IMG/VR virus record: IMGVR_UViG_2675903394_000002
Span: 1-24,281 of that record
Length of the DNA stretch: 24,281 bases
Reading direction: 5' to 3' (one strand)
Source of the DNA: a virus
Taxonomy: Duplodnaviria; Heunggongvirae; Uroviricota; Caudoviricetes
Shown one piece after another: positions 6,148-14,588 of the stretch (positions within the stretch are counted from its first letter, which is position 1; the number at the start of each line of letters is the position of its first letter). The notes beneath the pieces are model-generated. The model was not told where the DNA came from. It saw nothing but the letters and a program-made list of their open reading frames with translations, and made no database searches. Made by a program: the position numbers and the translations under genes.

Positions 6148-6641
6148 TGTTGCCCCCATAAACAGACTTCACGCTCAATCTCACGGCGAGTCATCAGCCC
6201 TTTCCATTGCTTACCGCCAGCGTATGTCCAGCGCCGTAGCTGATCACATGCGCCTTTGATATCGCCCTGGTTTATTTTGCGAAGAAGCGTCGATGTTCTG
6301 AAATTGCCAGCGCCCACGTTGTAAACGAACGAGTAAAGAGCGCCGCGCGTTGTTTCCGGTATATCGACTTTGATGTACGGGTTAATTTGTCTGGCGACCG
6401 TGGCAAGGTCTTTATTCAGGAGGGCTTTGCATTCTGCTTCGGTATACGTTTTACCTGGTATGATGTCTTTTCCGGTGTGTCCGTGACATACAGTCCATAC
6501 ACCAACAATATCTTTGTATGGTATGTAGCTGACACCTTCCAGACCATCGTTACCACTTGGACCAGTGATGAGCACAGACGCTATGGCAACAGCCCCACCA
6601 CCAATAGCAGCAGCAATAGCCTTGCGTAATGATGGCGACAT
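6144..6641 (-). CDS. R: SAR endolysin (lysozyme, phage 21 R-type, 165 aa)
   Basis: N-terminal Gly/Ala-rich signal-anchor-release helix ([18 protein letters not shown]) followed by a T4-lysozyme-like domain; the sequence closely resembles phage 21 R as I recall it. Confidence 0.9.
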
Positions 6642-6856
6642 TATTCACCTCTCGCAGCCTTACGCTTATCTTCTTTAATCTTGAAATAAAGGTTTGTCAG
6701 ATACGTCAGCAAGCCAAATACCAGACTACCCAGCACACCTATTGCCGCCCACTGTGAGGGCGTGACTTTATCGAGCAACTGTAAAAACCAGTACCCGGCA
6801 CTACCTGCTGAGGTGCCATAGGCGACACCCGTTGTTAACTTATCCATGGATTTCAT
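6641..6856 (-). CDS. S: Pinholin, phage 21 S-type (71 aa) with dual-start motif MKSM
   Basis: [71 protein letters not shown]: two TM helices, resembles S21. Ribosome-binding site GAGGTGGAG upstream of the start at 6856. The ORF track extends to 6910. Confidence 0.85.
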
Positions 6857-7123
6857 AACTCCACCTCGCAGATGCGGGTGCAAATTGAGAGAATAAAAAA
6901 TCCCCGACAATTCCAGATGTCAGCGGCCTTAAATATAAAAACAGGCAAATGCCGAGGCCCGCTAATCGTTGCCACTATGAGCGCTGCGACGCCATTTCAT
7001 CCAGACAAGCTATCAGATACGGAAGCCGTGCTGCCGCTTTTACGGCATTGTATTCACTATACTTATCTATTCTGATATCGTTAAATCAACAGAAATAACC
7101 AATATCAGAAGGAACGCATTAAT

Positions 7124-7672
7124 ATGGCGAACAATCTTTTTTATACACTTGACAGGCAGCGCACACTGAAGTCAGGCATGAAAATTGAATTAGCAGAACC
7201 GTACTGCCCAATCGTTCCACTTCAGGCTCATACGAGCTCATTGTTTTCCGACGGTGTATCCCGGCATGCAAATAATCTTTTTTTCAACTACCACATAAAC
7301 CTCGTCAGCTCAGACGAACGATTTGGAGCAATAATAGAAATACTACTGGAAGAACGAAGGAAATCACACTTCCCTGAAAAACCATCACGCTTCCAATCAA
7401 TTTTTGCATGTGAGTCTGTAAAAGAAACCGCCTGGTTCAGAGGCTTTTCAAAATCCCCACTTGACACCCCAATATTTCAAGTCAGCTCATCGTCGAACTA
7501 TCATAGAGGTGATATGAATTTGTTAAATCTGAACTGCTCCCCAGTAGAAGTATCTCAGAGGCTGGATCTTTACTGGAAGGGTGAAACAACACAGATTTAC
7601 GAAGGGTATCAACCATTCTGGGAAGTGCTCATTCCATTGCCAGTTATTATTGGTGAAAGAATTATCGAATAA
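7124..7672 (+). CDS. Hypothetical soluble protein (182 aa), first gene of the inverted insertion between S and Q
   Basis: ORF on the strand opposite to the late operon in an AT-rich insert. No TM segments and no family recognised. Confidence 0.6.
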   Translation: MANNLFYTLDRQRTLKSGMKIELAEPYCPIVPLQAHTSSLFSDGVSRHANNLFFNYHINLVSSDERFGAIIEILLEERRKSHFPEKPSRFQSIFACESVKETAWFRGFSKSPLDTPIFQVSSSSNYHRGDMNLLNLNCSPVEVSQRLDLYWKGETTQIYEGYQPFWEVLIPLPVIIGERIIE

Positions 7673-7862
7673 TGGCTCTGACACCAGAATCATTTCCATA
7701 GCCGAACTGACGCTGACAGATTTTTAATTCGCTTATGGCTTTCTCCATTGCTAATAGCGCGTCTTCAGTACGGTAGCAATCAACCTCAAGAACAAACGTT
7801 TTGAGATTGCTACTATCATTCCCGGCGAAAAGCGCATAGCTGGGTTGACCAGTCTGATTCAT
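7662..7862 (-). CDS. Possible small antisense ORF (66 aa) whose start abuts a G9 tract
   Basis: ORF-track entry; the start ATG at 7862 is immediately preceded on the minus strand by GAGG plus a run of G. It converges on and overlaps the 3' end of the 7124-7672 gene by 11 nt. Could be spurious. Confidence 0.25.
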   Translation of the reverse strand: MNQTGQPSYALFAGNDSSNLKTFVLEVDCYRTEDALLAMEKAISELKICQRQFGYGNDSGVRAIIR

Positions 7863-8014
7863 CCCCCCCCCTCAAACGACGAAACCCGCTCGACGGCGGG
7901 TTTAAGCCACGTGACAAAGTAACCACTCTTAACACGATACAATAGTTTTTGCGTACGCGTTAGCATTTTTGTTAAAGTATAAAAATGTAATTAAACCAGT
8001 ATGTCATCACTACA

Positions 8015-8899
8015 ATGAAATGCATCCGAAAACATCCAGCAATAGCTTATACAGTAATTATTTTAGTTTTTGCCTTAATATACAATTTCACTTGGAGCGT
8101 CAATCCAGATTCTTTCATTAAAAACAACGTTCTCAACTCTACACCTGTATATGATGCCGTTAATTTAGCATATGCGAACAATGAGGTAAAAAAAGAAGCT
8201 CCTGTCAGTGTTTCGAGGGAAGTATTTGCAGAGCAAATTTTAACACTTACAAATCAATTCAATAAGATAATAATTGAAAACTTAGAACTTGAAAAAACAT
8301 TATCTCAGCAGCAAGAAAAATTAAAACAAATTAGTGAAAGACAATCAATAAAGTGGGGCGAAAACACCAAAAAATACATAGCAGACAGTTTGAAAGATTT
8401 ACACAAAACGCTTATCACTAAAAATAGTGAACGTACTGCCATAGCATCTTTAAAAAACAAAACAAATGAAAGTCAGATTAACACTATGCTGGCCGACAAA
8501 GATGAAGAAATAGCCAAAATAAACCTTGAAATAGCGTATAAAGAGTATGATGCTAATGTCTATATCTTATCTCATGTCGGCGACTTTAACGATCCAATAA
8601 TCGTTAATGAGCTTGACGCAATCAATAAAGAAATTGAGAAAACAAGAACAAAAATAATAAACAACAAAAAGAAAATAATGGAGATAAGGAATAAATCTCA
8701 ATCTATGCTGGAGAAACTCAAAAAAGATGACCTTAACTTTTTGGATTTCTTATTTTATAGCATAGGAATATCTACAACGACCACCTTTGGTGATTTGTTA
8801 GCAAATTCAAGACTTATCAGACTGATAGTTTGCGTGCAACTTTTACTATCAATTATAGTTTTAGCTAACGTAACTCAAAGATTTTTATCAAAAAAATAA
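8015..8899 (+). CDS. Hypothetical membrane protein (294 aa): N-terminal TM helix, Lys/Glu/Asn-rich coiled-coil domain, C-terminal potassium-channel-like pore helix/filter/TM module
   Basis: Hydrophobic segment AIAYTVIILVFALIYNFTW at about aa 9-27; heptad-like K/E/N/I-rich middle; C-terminal NFLDFLFYSIGISTTTTFGDLL (nt 8726-8794) followed by TM helix LIRLIVCVQLLLSIIVLANV. Very AT-rich codon usage. Confidence 0.7.
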   Translation: MKCIRKHPAIAYTVIILVFALIYNFTWSVNPDSFIKNNVLNSTPVYDAVNLAYANNEVKKEAPVSVSREVFAEQILTLTNQFNKIIIENLELEKTLSQQQEKLKQISERQSIKWGENTKKYIADSLKDLHKTLITKNSERTAIASLKNKTNESQINTMLADKDEEIAKINLEIAYKEYDANVYILSHVGDFNDPIIVNELDAINKEIEKTRTKIINNKKKIMEIRNKSQSMLEKLKKDDLNFLDFLFYSIGISTTTTFGDLLANSRLIRLIVCVQLLLSIIVLANVTQRFLSKK

Positions 8900-8906
8900 A
8901 AAACAA

Positions 8907-8926
8907 AGCCCTCAAAAATGAGGGCT
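8907..8926 (-). terminator. Rho-independent terminator hairpin (agccctca-aaaa-tgagggct), strongest on the minus strand just downstream of Q; also positioned to terminate the plus-strand 8015-8899 gene
   Basis: Perfect 8-bp stem with 4-nt loop. On the minus strand it is followed by UUGUUUUUUAUUUUUUU; on the plus strand by AAUUUAAA. Confidence 0.6.
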
Positions 8927-8936
8927 AATTTAAACC

Positions 8937-9281
8937 TTAAGATAAGAACGATAAAATCCCGTCCAAAAATCCTAGTGCAGTTTGCAATTCCTTTCTAATC
9001 GTGCCATCTGAACACCTTCTCTTCTTGGCAATAGTGCGTAATGAGATACCAATAACAAAGTGGGCAATTAGTAGCTCATATTCTTCTGGCTTATATTTAC
9101 GCAACCTCGCCACACATCCATCAATCATAAGACCTTCATCATCATCACACTGCATCCGGGACTTTTTGCCATGAGGTAAAAGCCCCTTGAAGCCTGCTGC
9201 TATCGGCTGCCAATCCACACTACTGTTATCTGCTGCAGCCCATGCTCCCCAGCGGTCCAAAACTTCATACATGTCACGCAT
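8937..9281 (-). CDS. Q: Late-gene antitermination protein Q (DLP12 QuuD-like, about 114 aa)
   Basis: MRDMYEVLDRWGAWAAADNSSVDWQPIAAGFKGLLPHGKKSRMQCDDDEG... resembles DLP12 QuuD as I recall it. Ribosome-binding site GGAGAAAG upstream of the ATG at 9281. The ORF track extends to 9335. Confidence 0.8.
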   Translation of the reverse strand: MRDMYEVLDRWGAWAAADNSSVDWQPIAAGFKGLLPHGKKSRMQCDDDEGLMIDGCVARLRKYKPEEYELLIAHFVIGISLRTIAKKRRCSDGTIRKELQTALGFLDGILSFLS

Positions 9282-9365
9282 CAACTTTCTCCACAAAATC
9301 AGGCCAGCACGCCAATTACAAGCAAAAATCAACAAAACAGTATTAGTTGATTGTTATCTCTGACT

Positions 9366-10984: not shown

Positions 10985-11782
10985 TTACTCTCTGGAAGCT
11001 TTTCTTATCTCTCTTGGTGTTATATTAAAACGATTATGAAATCTTTCTGTAAAACGAGAAGGACACTTATAACCATTTTCTCTGGCAATCTCGCTTATAG
11101 GTTTTACCGTCGTTTGTATAGCAGACAACGCATTATTTAACCTCACATCGTCCAGTATACTTTGGAAACTTACCCCCTCGCTTGCTAGACGGCGATGTAA
11201 TGTAGAAACAGAAATGTAGAGATATCGAGCAACCTTGTTTGCTGTCCATTTTGTGCCGGGTTCGGATAGCAGCAGGTTATAACAACGACTTATCAATGAT
11301 TGTTTACTATATGATAAAAGTAAATGATTAACATGATTCACTCCTAACGAAAGTAGAACGCCCATTGCTAAGTGCTCCTGAATTTTAGTTGAGAAGCCTC
11401 GGGAAACAGATGTTTTTAGTTGCTCCCAACAATATATTAACTCAGGATTCTGAGGTAAAAAGAAACTTGTTTTGTTACGTATTTGATCAGTTACCGTATA
11501 AAGTTTTTGGAAACTCTCAATTAAATCAATGGGTAAGTAAAGCATTTCTGCAAGATAAAGCCCTGCTTCAGGATAATTCTCAATATAAAATTCATAACCA
11601 CAAGGAAATAATATTATTTGATTATTATCAACAGTTAAAGTATGCGTCTCCCAATTGATAACTTTCTTTCCCTGACGGATACGACACAAAGCTGGCATAA
11701 GAGGCTTAACCCTATGAATCTCATGATGTTTATGCATCCGTATTTCTTCGATCTTTAAGTTAGTCTTACCTCTTGCCAGCAT
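10985..11782 (-). CDS. ybcM: AraC-family transcriptional regulator (265 aa)
   Basis: C-terminal AraC-type HTH region (…[41 protein letters not shown]…); size and position match DLP12 ybcM. Confidence 0.85.
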
Positions 11783-11791
11783 ACTCTCACC

Positions 11792-12343
11792 CTACTTTAT
11801 CTCATAAACTGGTGTTATCTCAGCGGTTGCGATTTTATTAGCATTAAGCATATAACCAACTAACGCTCCGCTGGAGTTAGAATCTACAGGAATCTTTTCA
11901 GTTTTTAGAGCCCATACTTTAAACTGGTAATGATGTGGTTTATCTCCTTTAGGAGGACATGCGCCACCAAACCCAGCATAGCCAAAATCATTTCGGCCTT
12001 GAACAGCACCAGTCGGCAGTTTTGTTCCATCACGTCTCCCTGCATCAACGGGCAAATATGTTATTGTTGCTGGAATATTAACAACAGTCCAATGCCACCA
12101 ACCACTGCCTGTAGGTGCATCTGGATCATATACAGTTACGGCAAAGCTTTTGGTACCTTCAGGAACACCAGACCAGGTTAATGAGGGCGATGTATTACCA
12201 CCTTCACACCCAAATCCAGAAAAGACATGAGACGTTGTAAGTTGCTCTCCTGTTTTTATTTCATTACTAGTGACCTGAAATGCTGCAGCCTGCGCAGAAA
12301 ATGTTATGAATGCCAATACAGTTGAAACGATAAGTGTTTTCAT
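11792..12343 (-). CDS. ybcL: Secreted PEBP/YbcL-family protein (183 aa) with signal peptide
   Basis: N-terminal signal peptide MKTLIVSTVLAFITFSAQAAA; resembles E. coli YbcL. Confidence 0.85.
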   Translation of the reverse strand: MKTLIVSTVLAFITFSAQAAAFQVTSNEIKTGEQLTTSHVFSGFGCEGGNTSPSLTWSGVPEGTKSFAVTVYDPDAPTGSGWWHWTVVNIPATITYLPVDAGRRDGTKLPTGAVQGRNDFGYAGFGGACPPKGDKPHHYQFKVWALKTEKIPVDSNSSGALVGYMLNANKIATAEITPVYEIK

Positions 12344-12559
12344 AAAAACCTCTTTGTTATGATCTATCGTTATTTTATTTGATATTCCTTTATCTCATTA
12401 TGCATAAAGGCGCAATGTTTATGCAAAAGCAATCACAATTGTACCCCCAACCCAATTATTTGCCACAATATACACAAAGCACATTGATACTATCTAAAAA
12501 CCCTGCTTTATTATTAGTAATACCTACGAAAGTCGGTGTTATTTTTTAACCTACCATTC

Positions 12560-12609
12560 AAAATACGTGACATACACCATTTTGCTCATAATAATTTGTC
12601 ACGTATTTT
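12560..12609. repeat. Perfect 13-bp inverted repeat (aaaatacgtgaca ... tgtcacgtatttt) with a 24-bp AT-rich spacer in the ybcK-ybcL intergenic region
   Basis: Arms at 12560-12572 and 12597-12609 are exact reverse complements. Confidence 0.6.
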
Positions 12610-12807
12610 CAGTATTTGAATCTGCGACCAAGAGTTCTCACCTAACAAATGATTAAGATTGTATAGCTCATTTACTACCCCAATACAGCCGTACAAAACT
12701 CGCTTGTGGGAGCAAACAAAGTAATTACCCATTAAGTTTCGTCAAAGATAATTAATTCTGTCTTGCACTTTATCACCATAGCATAACTTAAAATCCGAGA
12801 TCATTAT

Positions 12808-14334
12808 TTAGAAATAAATCTCACCATCAACCATATATTTGAGAGCACTTATCGCCTGCTGGGCGGATATTACTTTCATTAAAGGATAGTGTTTAAAAAC
12901 AATGCCATTCATAAAATAGATACCACAGGTTTTATTATCCGTATTAATTATGATTTTTTCGAATGTTTTATAGGCAAGTGTACGGCATAACTCTCGTCCA
13001 TTTTTACTGGTTAAGTCAATAGCATAAAAATCACTGAATGAATTTACACCTTTACTCTTCAAAGTTTTCAATGATACCGAAGCCCTTCGTAATTCCTTAT
13101 CTAATAGTCTTATTTTCTCTGCTATAGCGGTAACTTCAGGCGCGACAGACAATGCAACGATTAAATTATTAATTTTCATCTGAAGCTCAATAATTTTTAA
13201 CTCTAAAGTTTCATTAGCATCTTTCTTGTTTTCAACTGGTTGAATTTTGCTACAATTAAAAAGCAATTCATTAATGATATTATAATCAACCAAATCTCTT
13301 TTTATTGATGGCCTGTCACATCGATGTAATCTTCTCATCGGACAAACATAATAGCCATGCAAACTTCCAGATACCGCATGAACAATCATGGTATTACCAC
13401 AAGCCTCACACTTCATAACTGTTCGAAGTAGATTTATTAGCATAGGATTCTTGCTACTATTGCTAATACCAAAAGGTGCCAACCGAATTTCCTGTACAGC
13501 GTAAAACAAATCATCTGATATAACTCTGGGATAATAGCCAGCGATTTCACTTATCCCTTTCCCTCTTGCACGATATGAAGGTACGCATATACCTATCAGA
13601 GCTTTATTCGCTAATAATTTTTCAATTACAGAAGGTCCCCATGCACTTTCTTTTCCTGAGAAATTCTTTACAGCATGATCATTTAAATACTTGGCTATTG
13701 CATTCAATGAGCGCCTTTCCATCCTGAGTTTAAAAATTAGCTCAATAGTTTTCACCCTGTCGGGGTCTGGAACAAAAGCCGTTCTTTTGTCATCTAAGGA
13801 GAGCCATCTCGGACAAGACGCCGTCATAATCGTACCTGATTCCATTGCATCCTGCCGTTTTTTCTTCCATGATAATTTAACCCGACTTGACTTTATCTCG
13901 CTTTCTTCATTTGCCCTTTGTGCTATAAGTATGGCTTTTATTAATGAATATGGCTCATTCAAAGAGTCAATATTATAGACTGTATTGTCGCAAAGAGTTA
14001 TAACATCAATACCGTGATTCAAAATCAATTTCAGACGTTCAATCGCTTCACCGACTTTTTCTCTTGAAAGTCTGTCCAGACTTTCAACTAACAATGTAGT
14101 TCCTGGCAATATATAACCATGCTCTATAGCATCTAAAAATTCCGAAAAAGCTCCTGATTGTGCATGCTTTCCTTTGAATGCACTTAATCCTAAATCTTCA
14201 TATGTTATGGTATCAAGATAATAATCACTATTTACCTTTAACCATTCAGCAATAAGTCTTCTCTGTCGGTTTAATGAGTCACCAGACATCTGACCTGGTG
14301 ATGAAAATCGCATATATGCTATGGCTTTTTTCAT
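12808..14334 (-). CDS. ybcK: Large serine recombinase (508 aa)
   Basis: N-terminal resolvase-type catalytic motif AYMRFSSPGQ and a Cys-rich region (CPRW…C…CEACG…CPMRRLHRC) typical of large serine recombinases; size matches DLP12 YbcK. Confidence 0.85.
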   Translation of the reverse strand: MKKAIAYMRFSSPGQMSGDSLNRQRRLIAEWLKVNSDYYLDTITYEDLGLSAFKGKHAQSGAFSEFLDAIEHGYILPGTTLLVESLDRLSREKVGEAIERLKLILNHGIDVITLCDNTVYNIDSLNEPYSLIKAILIAQRANEESEIKSSRVKLSWKKKRQDAMESGTIMTASCPRWLSLDDKRTAFVPDPDRVKTIELIFKLRMERRSLNAIAKYLNDHAVKNFSGKESAWGPSVIEKLLANKALIGICVPSYRARGKGISEIAGYYPRVISDDLFYAVQEIRLAPFGISNSSKNPMLINLLRTVMKCEACGNTMIVHAVSGSLHGYYVCPMRRLHRCDRPSIKRDLVDYNIINELLFNCSKIQPVENKKDANETLELKIIELQMKINNLIVALSVAPEVTAIAEKIRLLDKELRRASVSLKTLKSKGVNSFSDFYAIDLTSKNGRELCRTLAYKTFEKIIINTDNKTCGIYFMNGIVFKHYPLMKVISAQQAISALKYMVDGEIYF

Positions 14335-14588
14335 GGTGACACCTGCTAACGTATGCTTTTATAAACCTTAGTGGTGGGATATAATTTTTGTTTAATTTTT
14401 ATTTAAAAAGACAATTAAGGTCACATTATCTTGAATATACAACAATAATCGTATTGCAATTTTCTTACGCCATAATCTTGAAAGCACAAAAGAATACATA
14501 AAAAATAAAGACATTAACAAAAAGCATAAAACGAGGCTCATATAAATATAAGAGCCTCCATATTTTAGTCGTTTAGAAACAAATTATT

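What the first reader, a model, noticed from the sequence alone, without database searches (positions are those of the whole stretch)
8015..8899. 294-aa protein with a potassium-channel-like pore helix and degenerate selectivity filter fused to a long coiled coil
The C-terminal segment NFLDFLFYSIGISTTTTFGD (nt 8726-8794) aligns residue-for-residue with the pore-helix and selectivity-filter consensus of two-TM potassium channels, except that the GYG filter is replaced by TTFGD. It is followed directly by a TM helix (LIRLIVCVQLLLSIIVLANV) in the inner-helix position. The expected outer helix is not adjacent: the only other hydrophobic segment is at residues 9-27, separated by about 210 residues of Lys/Glu/Asn-rich heptad-like sequence. 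A filter lacking the first glycine would be expected to give a non-selective or non-conducting pore, which fits a membrane-depolarising effector rather than a housekeeping channel. This is my own pattern-matching, not a database hit.
Basis: inference. Interest (0 to 1): 0.8.

Follow-up and report, generated by a model that had tools for sequence, protein, structure and literature searches.

The report
Prophage channel protein with periplasmic stalk
A prophage cargo gene encodes a genuine potassium-channel-type pore whose ion filter is altered in a conserved way and which carries a very long helical stalk predicted to project into the periplasm; it belongs to a rare, unstudied family found almost only in phage and defence hotspots, making it a good candidate for a one-gene membrane-depolarising anti-phage protein.

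The parts
8015..8899 (+). Complete ORF, 294 aa plus stop: 2-TM channel-superfamily protein with a turret-inserted helical hairpin
8036..8101 (+). TM1, the outer helix (residues 8-29). Near-invariant F19, Y23 and W27 lie on one helical face (i, i+4, i+8)
   Evidence: helix and hydropathy; conservation; the 82-87-residue superposition on 2-TM channels requires this helix. N-flank net charge +2.05 against -0.86 after TM1 across 221 sequences, so the N-terminus is predicted cytoplasmic.
8105..8146 (+). Family signature PDSFIxNxxLNxxP (residues 31-44) directly after TM1. In the model, residues 34-36 form a beta-bridge with 261-263, just after the filter
   Evidence: D32, F34, N41 and P44 invariant in 100 sequences; strands E34-36 and E261-263.
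8216..8716 (+). Long antiparallel helical hairpin (residues 68-234): helix 68-145, tip 146-151, return helix 152-234 kinked at about 187-193. Predicted periplasmic; about 115 A long if straight (inference: 78 residues x 1.5 A)
   Evidence: pLDDT 92-97; insert length 193-220, median 214.5, and net charge about -4.8 across the family; structural matches to Smc, chemoreceptor, EmrA, LipC and EnvC hairpins; near-invariant N117, Y121, A174, F191.
8738..8773 (+). Pore helix (residues 242-253). D244, F245, aromatic pair F247/Y248 and S249 correspond to KcsA W67/W68/S69
   Evidence: S249 in 221/221, D244 in 217/221.
8774..8794 (+). Filter TTTTFGD (residues 254-260), aligned to TTVGYGD of canonical K+ channels: T256 = V76, T257 = G77, F258 = Y78, G259 = G79, D260 = D80 (KcsA numbering)
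   Evidence: HMMER alignments to KvLm 4h33, AKT5 and NaK; position 257: T 180, S 16, G 12, A 6, N 5; G259 in 220/221; D260 in 217/221.
8810..8893 (+). TM2, the inner helix (residues 266-293), with near-invariant V272, Q275 and L276. Only about 8 cytoplasmic residues follow, so there is no cytoplasmic gating domain
8907..8926 (.). GC-rich hairpin AGCCCTCA/TGAGGGCT in the 37-bp gap between the convergent channel gene and Q. On the minus strand it is followed by a long T-run, so it is a terminator for the Q transcript and a probable insulator of the channel gene
   Evidence: conserved together with the gene in L006.
7862..8014 (.). Upstream region co-inherited with the gene. It contains a roughly 110-nt element (7862-7975) shared with SfII, Stx2a phages and 190 E. 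coli genomes, with hairpin 7878-7899. The channel gene's own promoter should lie here; my reading is a weak -35 TTGCGT at 7949-7954 and an extended -10 TGtTAAAGT at 7970-7978, which is below the scan's threshold
   Evidence: The promoter assignment is inference only and was not returned.
8937..9335 (-). Phage antiterminator Q, convergent with the channel gene. It marks the cargo slot and is not part of the channel
   Evidence: Phage_antitermQ, E 3.7e-45. The same arrangement is seen in L006-L008, L041-L044 and L048.

Best explanation
Shown: the gene encodes a complete 2-TM pore domain of the tetrameric cation-channel (KcsA/Kir/NaK) superfamily. Its turret is replaced by a helical hairpin of about 200 residues. 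Its filter is the conserved variant TTTTFGD, with Thr in place of the Val and the first Gly of TVGYG. It is a stand-alone cargo gene of a DLP12-type prophage, sitting where relatives carry the nmpC porin. Its family occurs almost only in phage or satellite cargo slots and defence islands. Inferred: four subunits form an inner-membrane pore with both termini in the cytoplasm, and the four hairpins form a stalk of about 115 A in the periplasm over the pore mouth, like an oversized K2P cap. By analogy with the GIRK2 weaver mutation, a filter lacking the first glycine would pass Na+ as well as K+, so opening would collapse the membrane potential. There is no cytoplasmic domain and TM2 ends about 8 residues after the membrane, so gating most likely comes from the periplasmic stalk and the invariant PDSFI segment that packs on the filter exit. 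The proposed role is a one-protein sensor-effector expressed from the prophage in the lysogen. It stays closed until an infecting phage perturbs the envelope, then depolarises the cell and aborts or blocks the infection.
Confidence: 0.5

Rival explanations
1. Superinfection exclusion without ion flux. The tetramerising pore domain is only a membrane anchor, and the periplasmic stalk physically intercepts or mis-targets the DNA-ejection machinery of incoming phages, so cells survive rather than abort.
For: The largest and length-constrained part of the protein is the predicted periplasmic hairpin. It is prophage-encoded and oriented against the late operon like classical lysogen-expressed exclusion genes. 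Entry-blocking membrane systems exist, such as Kiwa and SNIPE (PMC13434031). Thr at the first-glycine position might not conduct.
Against: The most strongly conserved residues are the filter and pore helix (TTTTFGD, S249, G259, D260), not the stalk. That is hard to explain if the pore were only an anchor.
Confidence: 0.15
2. A lysogenic-conversion cation channel that benefits host physiology (ion homeostasis, osmotic or pH stress, envelope permeability) rather than acting against phages. It would be analogous to the nmpC porin that occupies the same slot in DLP12.
For: The nearest relative carries a porin in the identical position and orientation. NCBI already treats homologs as ordinary potassium-channel family proteins. 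12 of 221 family members keep a canonical-looking TTTGYGD or TTAGFGD filter.
Against: Extreme rarity and patchy distribution. Repeated co-location with defence genes outside prophages. No cytoplasmic regulatory domain such as RCK. The filter lacks the glycine needed for K+ selectivity in characterised channels.
Confidence: 0.15
3. A phage lysis-timing accessory (holin- or antiholin-like depolariser) that serves the prophage's own lytic cycle.
For: It lies between Q and the pinholin/SAR-endolysin cassette. Pinholins act by depolarisation (general knowledge).
Against: It is transcribed opposite to the late operon and insulated by a terminator hairpin. Homologs sit in the P2 tail-fibre slot, at Ogr edges, in a P4-like satellite and in non-phage islands that have no lysis genes.
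Confidence: 0.05
4. The toxin half of an addiction or toxin-antitoxin-like module that stabilises the mobile element, with an unrecognised antidote (a small protein or RNA).
For: A predicted non-selective pore would be toxic. The cyanobacterial copy is directly followed by what looks from sequence like an antitoxin plus PIN-toxin pair (not profile-tested), and Mixta has an antitoxin-like gene nearby. Vibrio copies have an overlapping small 1-TM partner.
Against: No partner is conserved across contexts. The adjacent toxin-antitoxin genes look like complete pairs in their own right.
Confidence: 0.05

Closest known systems
Prokaryotic and eukaryotic 2-TM pore domains of the tetrameric cation-channel superfamily (KcsA, KirBac/Kir, NaK, KvLm pore module; Pfam Ion_trans_2)
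   Same: Outer helix, pore helix, filter and inner helix in the same order and in sequence register. The aromatic pair, Ser, the second Gly and the Asp of the signature are conserved. The model superposes at about 2 A over 82-87 residues.
   Different: Filter is TTTTFGD instead of T(V/I)G(Y/F)GD, with no first glycine. A hairpin of about 200 residues is inserted in the turret. An invariant PDSFIxNxxLNxxP block follows TM1. There is no cytoplasmic domain, and the inner helix is short.
K2P (two-pore-domain) channels with their extracellular helical cap
   Same: A helical extracellular structure is built from the linker between the outer helix (M1) and the pore helix (P1), sitting over the pore mouth (PMC4726246, PMC6121469). 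The TRAAK pore region appears among the profile hits.
   Different: K2P chains have two pore domains and dimerise, whereas this protein has one P-loop per chain. The K2P cap is short, whereas here the helices are about 78 residues long. The NCBI name 'two pore domain potassium channel family protein' on some homologs is a generic label, not an architecture.
GIRK2 weaver mutant (G156S; human G154S)
   Same: A hydroxyl residue replaces the first glycine of GYG; 16 of 221 family members have exactly Ser there and 180 have Thr. In GIRK2 this gives loss of K+ selectivity, constitutive current and cell death (PMC9001731).
   Different: Weaver is a pathological point mutation in a regulated eukaryotic channel. 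Here the substitution is the conserved native state, it is accompanied by V76 to T, and its effect is untested.
Hailong HalA (DNA-gated channel effector of an anti-phage system)
   Same: A K-channel-superfamily tetrameric membrane effector carried in mobile defence hotspots, which kills by depolarisation with Na+ inflow (PMC13434031, PMC13586616).
   Different: HalA works with the nucleotidyltransferase HalB and is gated by oligo-dA on a cytoplasmic crown. A HalA-like gene in L031 has a canonical TTLGYGD filter, a short turret and pentapeptide repeats, and shows no significant similarity to this protein. The window has no nucleotidyltransferase neighbour and no cytoplasmic domain.
Rip1 and other single-protein membrane sensor-effectors encoded by prophages
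   Same: One prophage-encoded protein proposed to both sense infection and open the inner membrane; it is non-toxic until triggered (PMC13434031).
   Different: Rip1 is an amphipathic-helix pore former that assembles around phage terminase or portal rings in the cytoplasm, and it is unrelated in fold. The sensor proposed here is periplasmic.

Membership tests
Tetrameric cation-channel pore domain (Pfam PF07885 Ion_trans_2) | Profile score at or above Pfam's gathering cut-off | tested here: met
   24.4 bits against 22.5, E 2.6e-5, residues 239-290 matching profile positions 22-73 of 79. Most homologs carry the precomputed PF07885 hit.
Tetrameric cation-channel pore domain (Pfam PF07885 Ion_trans_2) | Fold: outer helix, re-entrant pore helix, filter loop, inner helix | tested here: met
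Tetrameric cation-channel pore domain (Pfam PF07885 Ion_trans_2) | Four-fold (or pseudo-four-fold) assembly around a central pore | not testable with these tools
   Only monomer prediction was available.
K+-selective channels | Signature filter T-(V/I)-G-(Y/F)-G with both glycines | tested here: not met
   The window has T-T-T-F-G. The first-Gly position is T in 180, S in 16 and G in only 12 of 221 representatives; the second Gly is present in 220 of 221.
K+-selective channels | Measured K+ over Na+ selectivity | not testable with these tools
   Needs electrophysiology or flux assays.
K2P channels | Two pore domains per polypeptide | tested here: not met
   There is a single Ion_trans_2 stretch and a single filter motif.
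K2P channels | Helical cap formed by the M1-P1 linker | tested here: inconclusive
   The hairpin is at the same insertion point, but it is about 200 residues long and no sequence or structural match to K2P caps was found. It is analogous rather than demonstrably homologous.
Hailong (HalA/HalB) | Adjacent HalB nucleotidyltransferase gene | tested here: not met
   The neighbours are DUF2441, a 66-aa ORF and Q. None of about 15 homolog contexts has an adjacent nucleotidyltransferase.
Hailong (HalA/HalB) | HalA architecture (cytoplasmic crown or pentapeptide-repeat domain) and sequence similarity | tested here: not met
   There is no cytoplasmic domain. BLASTP against the HalA-like protein of L031 gives only E 0.072, in TM1.
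Catalogued anti-phage defence systems (PADLOC v2.0.0) | Match to a defence-protein model | tested here: not met
   Only a coiled-coil-level hit, E 0.045. P0027, P0068 and P0085 have none.
Anti-phage defence gene (generic) | Enrichment in defence islands and in phage or satellite cargo hotspots | tested here: met
   Qualitatively, about 15 independent contexts are all prophage slots, integrase-linked islets or islands with PADLOC-recognised genes. No background statistic was computed.
Anti-phage defence gene (generic) | Experimentally demonstrated protection against phage | not testable with these tools
   No paper on this family was found.
Holin / pinholin | Part of the late lysis operon, co-oriented with the endolysin | tested here: not met
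   It is on the opposite strand to S, R and Rz and is separated by a terminator hairpin. A separate S21-type pinholin is present at 6641..6910 (identification from my own knowledge of the S21 sequence).

The most novel reading that the evidence does not exclude
A periplasmic 'tripwire' channel. A single protein has a four-hairpin stalk of about 115 A reaching toward the peptidoglycan layer. The stalk detects the physical passage of a phage tail or ejection apparatus, or local cell-wall breach, and mechanically uncaps a naturally weaver-like, non-selective K-channel pore. This would give abortive infection or entry block with extracytoplasmic sensing and no second component. It would be a new class of single-gene immunity and a new way of gating a K-channel-fold pore from the outside.
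Probability: 0.2. Interest if true: 0.85.

Novelty: new variant of a known kind. Interest (0 to 1): 0.65.

Why it matters
Potassium-channel-fold proteins have only just been recognised as anti-phage effectors (Hailong). This family would be a second, architecturally different case: one gene, no cytoplasmic sensor, a giant turret insertion, and a filter that nature has fixed in the state that makes mammalian GIRK2 non-selective and lethal. It offers a compact test of three things. Can a K-channel pore be gated from the periplasm? What does a hydroxyl-lined TTTTFGD filter conduct? Do the lambdoid Q-lysis slot, the P2 and the P4 hotspots exchange the same membrane effectors? It also shows that an automatic 'potassium channel family protein' label can hide a likely immunity gene.

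Tried and rejected
- Full-length Foldseek against the PDB returned only coiled-coil noise, E > 0.04.
- The full-length profile against PDB sequences was likewise dominated by coiled coils. This was fixed by cutting out the pore module.
- AlphaFold of the 59-residue pore module alone modelled the filter as helix (pLDDT 75), and Foldseek found nothing, so it was uninformative.
- The idea that the upstream DUF2441 gene is a partner was rejected. It is absent next to 98%-identical copies (L006-L008, L043) and absent from all distant contexts.
- The idea that the Vibrio 226-aa partner is related to DUF2441 was rejected: no shared family.
- Hailong membership was rejected.
- I tried to locate pR' in the conserved 110-nt element by eye and with the promoter scan. 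There was no convincing sigma-70 match, so I only call it a late-leader or terminator-like element.
- Simple heptad periodicity did not support a canonical coiled coil for helix 68-145.
- The Hailong primary paper and the supplements of the P2/P4 hotspot paper were not available.

Full report
**1. The observation**

It lies in a low-GC island: 31% GC for 8001-9000 against about 50% in the flanks.

A hydropathy scan finds only two hydrophobic segments, at residues about 3-31 and 260-292. The quoted pore string is residues 241-260, which is nt 8735-8794.

The insert is 34% Lys+Glu+Asn. AlphaFold predicts it as long helices (68-145, 152-191, 194-234) with pLDDT mostly 92-97. A crude 3.5-residue periodicity is clear only for 194-234, so I call it a helical hairpin rather than a canonical coiled coil.

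**2. Is it a channel pore?**

Yes, by three lines of evidence.

- *Pfam.* Ion_trans_2 scores 24.4 bits against a gathering cut-off of 22.5, over residues 239-290.
- *Profile against solved structures.* The full-length profile was swamped by coiled-coil noise. A profile of the C-terminal module alone from 27 diverse homologs (A3) returned 26 sequences with E<1, of which 25 are cation-channel pore modules: KvLm 4h33 at E 6.8e-4, then AKT5, NaK variants, TRAAK, KcsA and KAT1. The alignments are gap-free and in register: ySiGisTTTTFGDiv against wAIVTATTVGYGDIV. In KcsA numbering this gives F247/Y248 = W67/W68, S249 = S69, T254/T255 = T74/T75, T256 = V76, T257 = G77, F258 = Y78, G259 = G79 and D260 = D80.

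Only 59 residues lie C-terminal to the insert, so an 82-87-residue superposition must include the N-terminal helix. TM1 is therefore the 'missing' outer helix. Consistent with this, TM1 carries a conserved face (F19, Y23, W27 at i, i+4, i+8).

One caveat applies: AlphaFold may be guided by the same motif, so this third line is not fully independent of the first two.

**3. Anatomy**

- *Order of elements.* TM1 (8-29), then the invariant block PDSFIxNxxLNxxP (31-44), then a low-confidence loop (about 54-67). Next come the ascending helix 68-145, the tip 146-151, and the return helix 152-234 with a kink at about 187-193. These are followed by the pore helix 242-253, the filter 254-260, TM2 266-293, and the end of the protein at 294.
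- *PDSFI contact.* In the model, residues 34-36 form a beta-bridge with 261-263, so the PDSFI block sits on the filter exit.
- *Insertion point.* The hairpin is inserted in the turret, the same M1-P1 position from which K2P channels build their extracellular cap (PMC4726246, PMC6121469).
- *Topology.* Across 221 representatives the flank before TM1 is +2.05 and the flank after it -0.86. The insert has a net charge of about -4.8. This predicts N-in with the insert outside, which is the normal K-channel topology. The TM2 flanks are ambiguous (+1.41 and +1.17).
- *Insert length.* It is held to 193-220 residues (median 214.5) although sequence identity falls to about 21-25%, which suggests that length matters. 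A 78-residue helix is about 115 A long (inference).
- *No cytoplasmic domain.* Nothing beyond about 8 residues follows TM2.

**4. The filter is a fixed variant, not decay**

In 221 full-length representatives:

| Position | KcsA equivalent | Residues |
|---|---|---|
| 249 | S69 | S in 221/221 |
| 256 | V76 | T 159, N 21, V 16, A 14, S 6 |
| 257 | G77 (first Gly) | T 180, S 16, G 12, A 6, N 5 |
| 258 | Y78 | F 196, Y 18 |
| 259 | G79 | G in 220/221 |
| 260 | D80 | D in 217/221 |

A minority keep the first glycine (TTTGYGD x7, TTAGFGD x1), which ties the family to canonical channels.

Ser at the first-glycine position is the GIRK2 weaver mutation. That channel still conducts, but PK/PNa falls from at least 20 to about 2, it becomes constitutively active, and it kills neurons (PMC9001731). 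Thr, and the accompanying V76T, are untested.

**5. The family**

- The word-indexed search found 108 homologs. Nearly all are 280-330 aa and match end to end. They come from Enterobacterales, Vibrio, Shewanella, Psychrobacter, Alteromonadaceae and cyanobacteria.
- An exhaustive HMMER search of 1.84 billion cluster representatives found 994 proteins at E<=1e-3, 329 at E<=1e-10 and 166 at E<=1e-30.
- The family is rare and patchy. It occurs at 5 loci in 185,579 species-representative genomes. No copy was found in 5,426 complete E. coli genomes or in GenBank phages. Eight IMG/VR viral contigs carry it.
- NCBI already labels close homologs 'ion channel', 'potassium channel family protein' or 'two pore domain potassium channel family protein', so the channel resemblance itself is not new.
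- PADLOC v2.0.0 has no model for it, and I found no paper on it.

**6. Genomic setting in the window**

The window is a DLP12-type prophage: 84% of it is 99% identical to the intD/ybcK prophage of several E. coli strains. In the nearest relative, the interval between quuD and essD holds the nmpC/ompC-type porin, on the strand opposite to the late genes.

Here that interval, reading from Q toward the lysis genes, holds:

- Q (8937..9335, minus strand; Phage_antitermQ, E 3.7e-45).
- A terminator-like hairpin at 8907-8926.
- The channel gene, convergent with Q.
- A conserved 110-nt element (7862-7975).
- A 66-aa ORF on the minus strand.
- A DUF2441 gene on the plus strand.
- The S21-type pinholin, SAR endolysin and Rz. 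That lysis-gene identification is from my own knowledge of the phage 21 sequences.

Shigella phage SfII has the same layout, with two unrelated hypothetical genes as cargo. The block from the hairpin at 7878-7899 through the channel gene and terminator into Q is shared at about 99% with another E. coli prophage, L006, which lacks DUF2441. Left of the hairpin the two sequences diverge. DUF2441 is therefore separate cargo, not a partner.

**7. Contexts of homologs**

| Homolog and identity | Context |
|---|---|
| E. coli 98-100%, Citrobacter-like 81%, a 63% relative | Convergent with Phage_antitermQ, next to the lysis genes |
| Proteus, 50% | Between Q and the lysozyme gene, beside a 932-aa AAA_22/SEC-C protein with a faint Cap4-nuclease hit |
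| Klebsiella, 55% | P2-like prophage, between the tail-fibre and tail genes, with a dGTPase |
| Enterobacter, Lelliottia, Pantoea, 27-33% | Directly beside Ogr at P2 prophage edges; one has a ThsB-like TIR gene nearby |
| A 57% relative | Beside a P4-alpha-type primase-helicase |
| A 56% relative | Island with PADLOC PDC-S73 (nSTAND3), ArdC, dGTPase (E 1.7e-109) and an OLD/AAA_15 gene |
| Yersinia, 56% | The same channel/dGTPase pair beside integrases, in two settings |
| Vibrio | Four unrelated settings, including CRISPR-Tn7 cargo and an nSTAND1-Mrr neighbour; always with an overlapping 226-aa 1-TM gene |
| Alteromonadaceae MAG | 32 nt after a PDC-S06 ATPase (E 3e-235), in an integrase/TrwB element |
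| Mixta | Beside a LeoA-like GTPase |
| Cyanobacterial MAG | Followed by what looks from sequence like an antitoxin plus PIN-toxin pair (not profile-tested) |
| Shewanella | With PIN7, SRAP and UmuDC genes, and a HalA-like gene 3.4 kb away |
| Psychrobacter | Beside a P4-type integrase |

No partner gene is shared across these contexts. This is the distribution expected of mobile defence or exclusion cargo. I did not compute a background rate, so the association is qualitative.

**8. Mechanism**

Shown: the pore-domain identity, the conserved variant filter, the turret insertion, the stand-alone cargo status, and the hotspot and defence-island distribution.

Inferred: tetramer formation, the periplasmic location of the stalk, non-selective conduction, gating from outside, and depolarisation-based abortive infection or exclusion.

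The inference rests on three precedents: the weaver channel; Hailong HalA, a K-channel-like effector that depolarises cells with Na+ inflow; and Rip1, a single prophage protein that senses infection and forms a pore. I put about 0.5 on this composite. The fold assignment alone deserves about 0.9.

Four rivals remain open, as set out in the rival section:

- An entry-blocking stalk with a non-conducting anchor.
- A physiological conversion channel.
- A lysis accessory.
- An addiction toxin.

The strongest argument against the anchor rival is that selection is tightest on the filter residues. The strongest argument against the physiological rival is the rarity of the family and the company it keeps.

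**9. Comparison with known systems**

- It belongs to the Ion_trans_2 superfamily by score and by predicted fold.
- It fails the K+-selective signature at the first glycine.
- It is not a K2P channel, because it has one pore loop, although its insert is positioned like a K2P cap.
- It is not Hailong. There is no HalB, no cytoplasmic crown, and no significant similarity to a HalA-like protein, which has a TTLGYGD filter and pentapeptide repeats.

**10. Verdict**

The structural interpretation is supported with corrections: the hairpin is inserted rather than fused, and the filter is conserved rather than degenerate. The functional interpretation is plausible and strengthened by context, but unproven.

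The channel annotation already exists in databases. What appears new is the architecture, the naturally weaver-like filter, and the systematic placement in phage and satellite cargo hotspots. I rate it a new variant of a known kind, with interest 0.65.

Noticed in passing
window 7124..7672 (+): A 182-aa low-GC gene matching DUF2441 (26.7 bits against a cut-off of 25) and phrog_5663 (E 1.8e-58), with a weak PDB match to 2aua (E 8e-4). Pfam places DUF2441 in the ADP-ribosyltransferase clan (PMC7955679). It accompanies the channel gene in the window and in L041/L042, but is absent beside 98%-identical copies (L006, L043), so it is an independent moron of unknown role, possibly a toxin or counter-defence enzyme.
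   Followed up: partly
window 7662..7862 (-): A 66-aa ORF with no Pfam hit. It starts immediately after the conserved hairpin, is preceded by GAGG plus a G-run, and overlaps the 3' end of the DUF2441 gene convergently. It may be the first gene of the late transcript in this phage.
   Followed up: no
window 7862-7975 (hairpin 7878-7899): A roughly 110-nt non-coding element conserved at 88-90% in 190 of 5,426 complete E. coli genomes, Shigella phage SfII and Stx2a phages. It lies between the cargo slot and the late or lysis genes. Its hairpin AAACCCGC/GCGGGTTT is followed in L006 by T7 on the minus strand, making it terminator-like in the late direction. It may be a late-operon leader or tR'-type element. 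No convincing sigma-70 promoter was found in it.
   Followed up: partly
window 8907-8926: A strong hairpin (AGCCCTCA/TGAGGGCT) 10 nt after the Q stop codon and 8 nt after the channel stop codon, with a long T-run on the minus strand. Transcription coming from Q would terminate before entering the channel gene in antisense. This raises the question of where the Q-dependent late promoter lies in this phage.
   Followed up: partly
L009:6001-8401, L024:6001-8374, L034/L035:6001-8376, L046:4995-7368: The 54-56%-identical homologs travel as a convergent pair with a 408-aa dGTPase-type HD protein (PADLOC dGTPase, E 1.7e-109 on the L009 copy). The pair appears in at least four different settings: a defence island, the P2 tail-fibre slot, and two Yersinia integrase contexts. 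It may be a mobile two-system cassette or a functional pairing.
   Followed up: partly
L019-L022: 5331-6011: Vibrio homologs always have an upstream 226-aa gene that overlaps the channel start by 11 nt. It encodes a protein with one N-terminal TM helix and a helical remainder, and has no Pfam family. The pair moves together through four unrelated neighbourhoods, so some branches of the family may be two-component.
   Followed up: partly
L031:10282-11229: A Hailong HalA-like gene (Ion_trans_2 plus pentapeptide repeats, canonical TTLGYGD filter) lies 3.4 kb from the Shewanella homolog. Two different K-channel-fold proteins therefore share one small island.
   Followed up: partly
L002:3563-5926: In an Alteromonadaceae MAG the channel gene starts 32 nt after a 787-aa ATPase matching the PADLOC candidate system PDC-S06 (E 3e-235). 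The two may form an operon, which hints that the channel can be recruited as an effector for an ATPase sensor.
   Followed up: no
window 10985..11782 (-) and the low-GC stretch about 11000-14500: An AraC-family regulator (HTH_18, E 9.5e-17; ybcM in the related genome), the ybcL-like gene and the 508-aa ybcK-type recombinase form a second low-GC block (34-38% GC) of the DLP12-type prophage. This is ordinary for this prophage.
   Followed up: no
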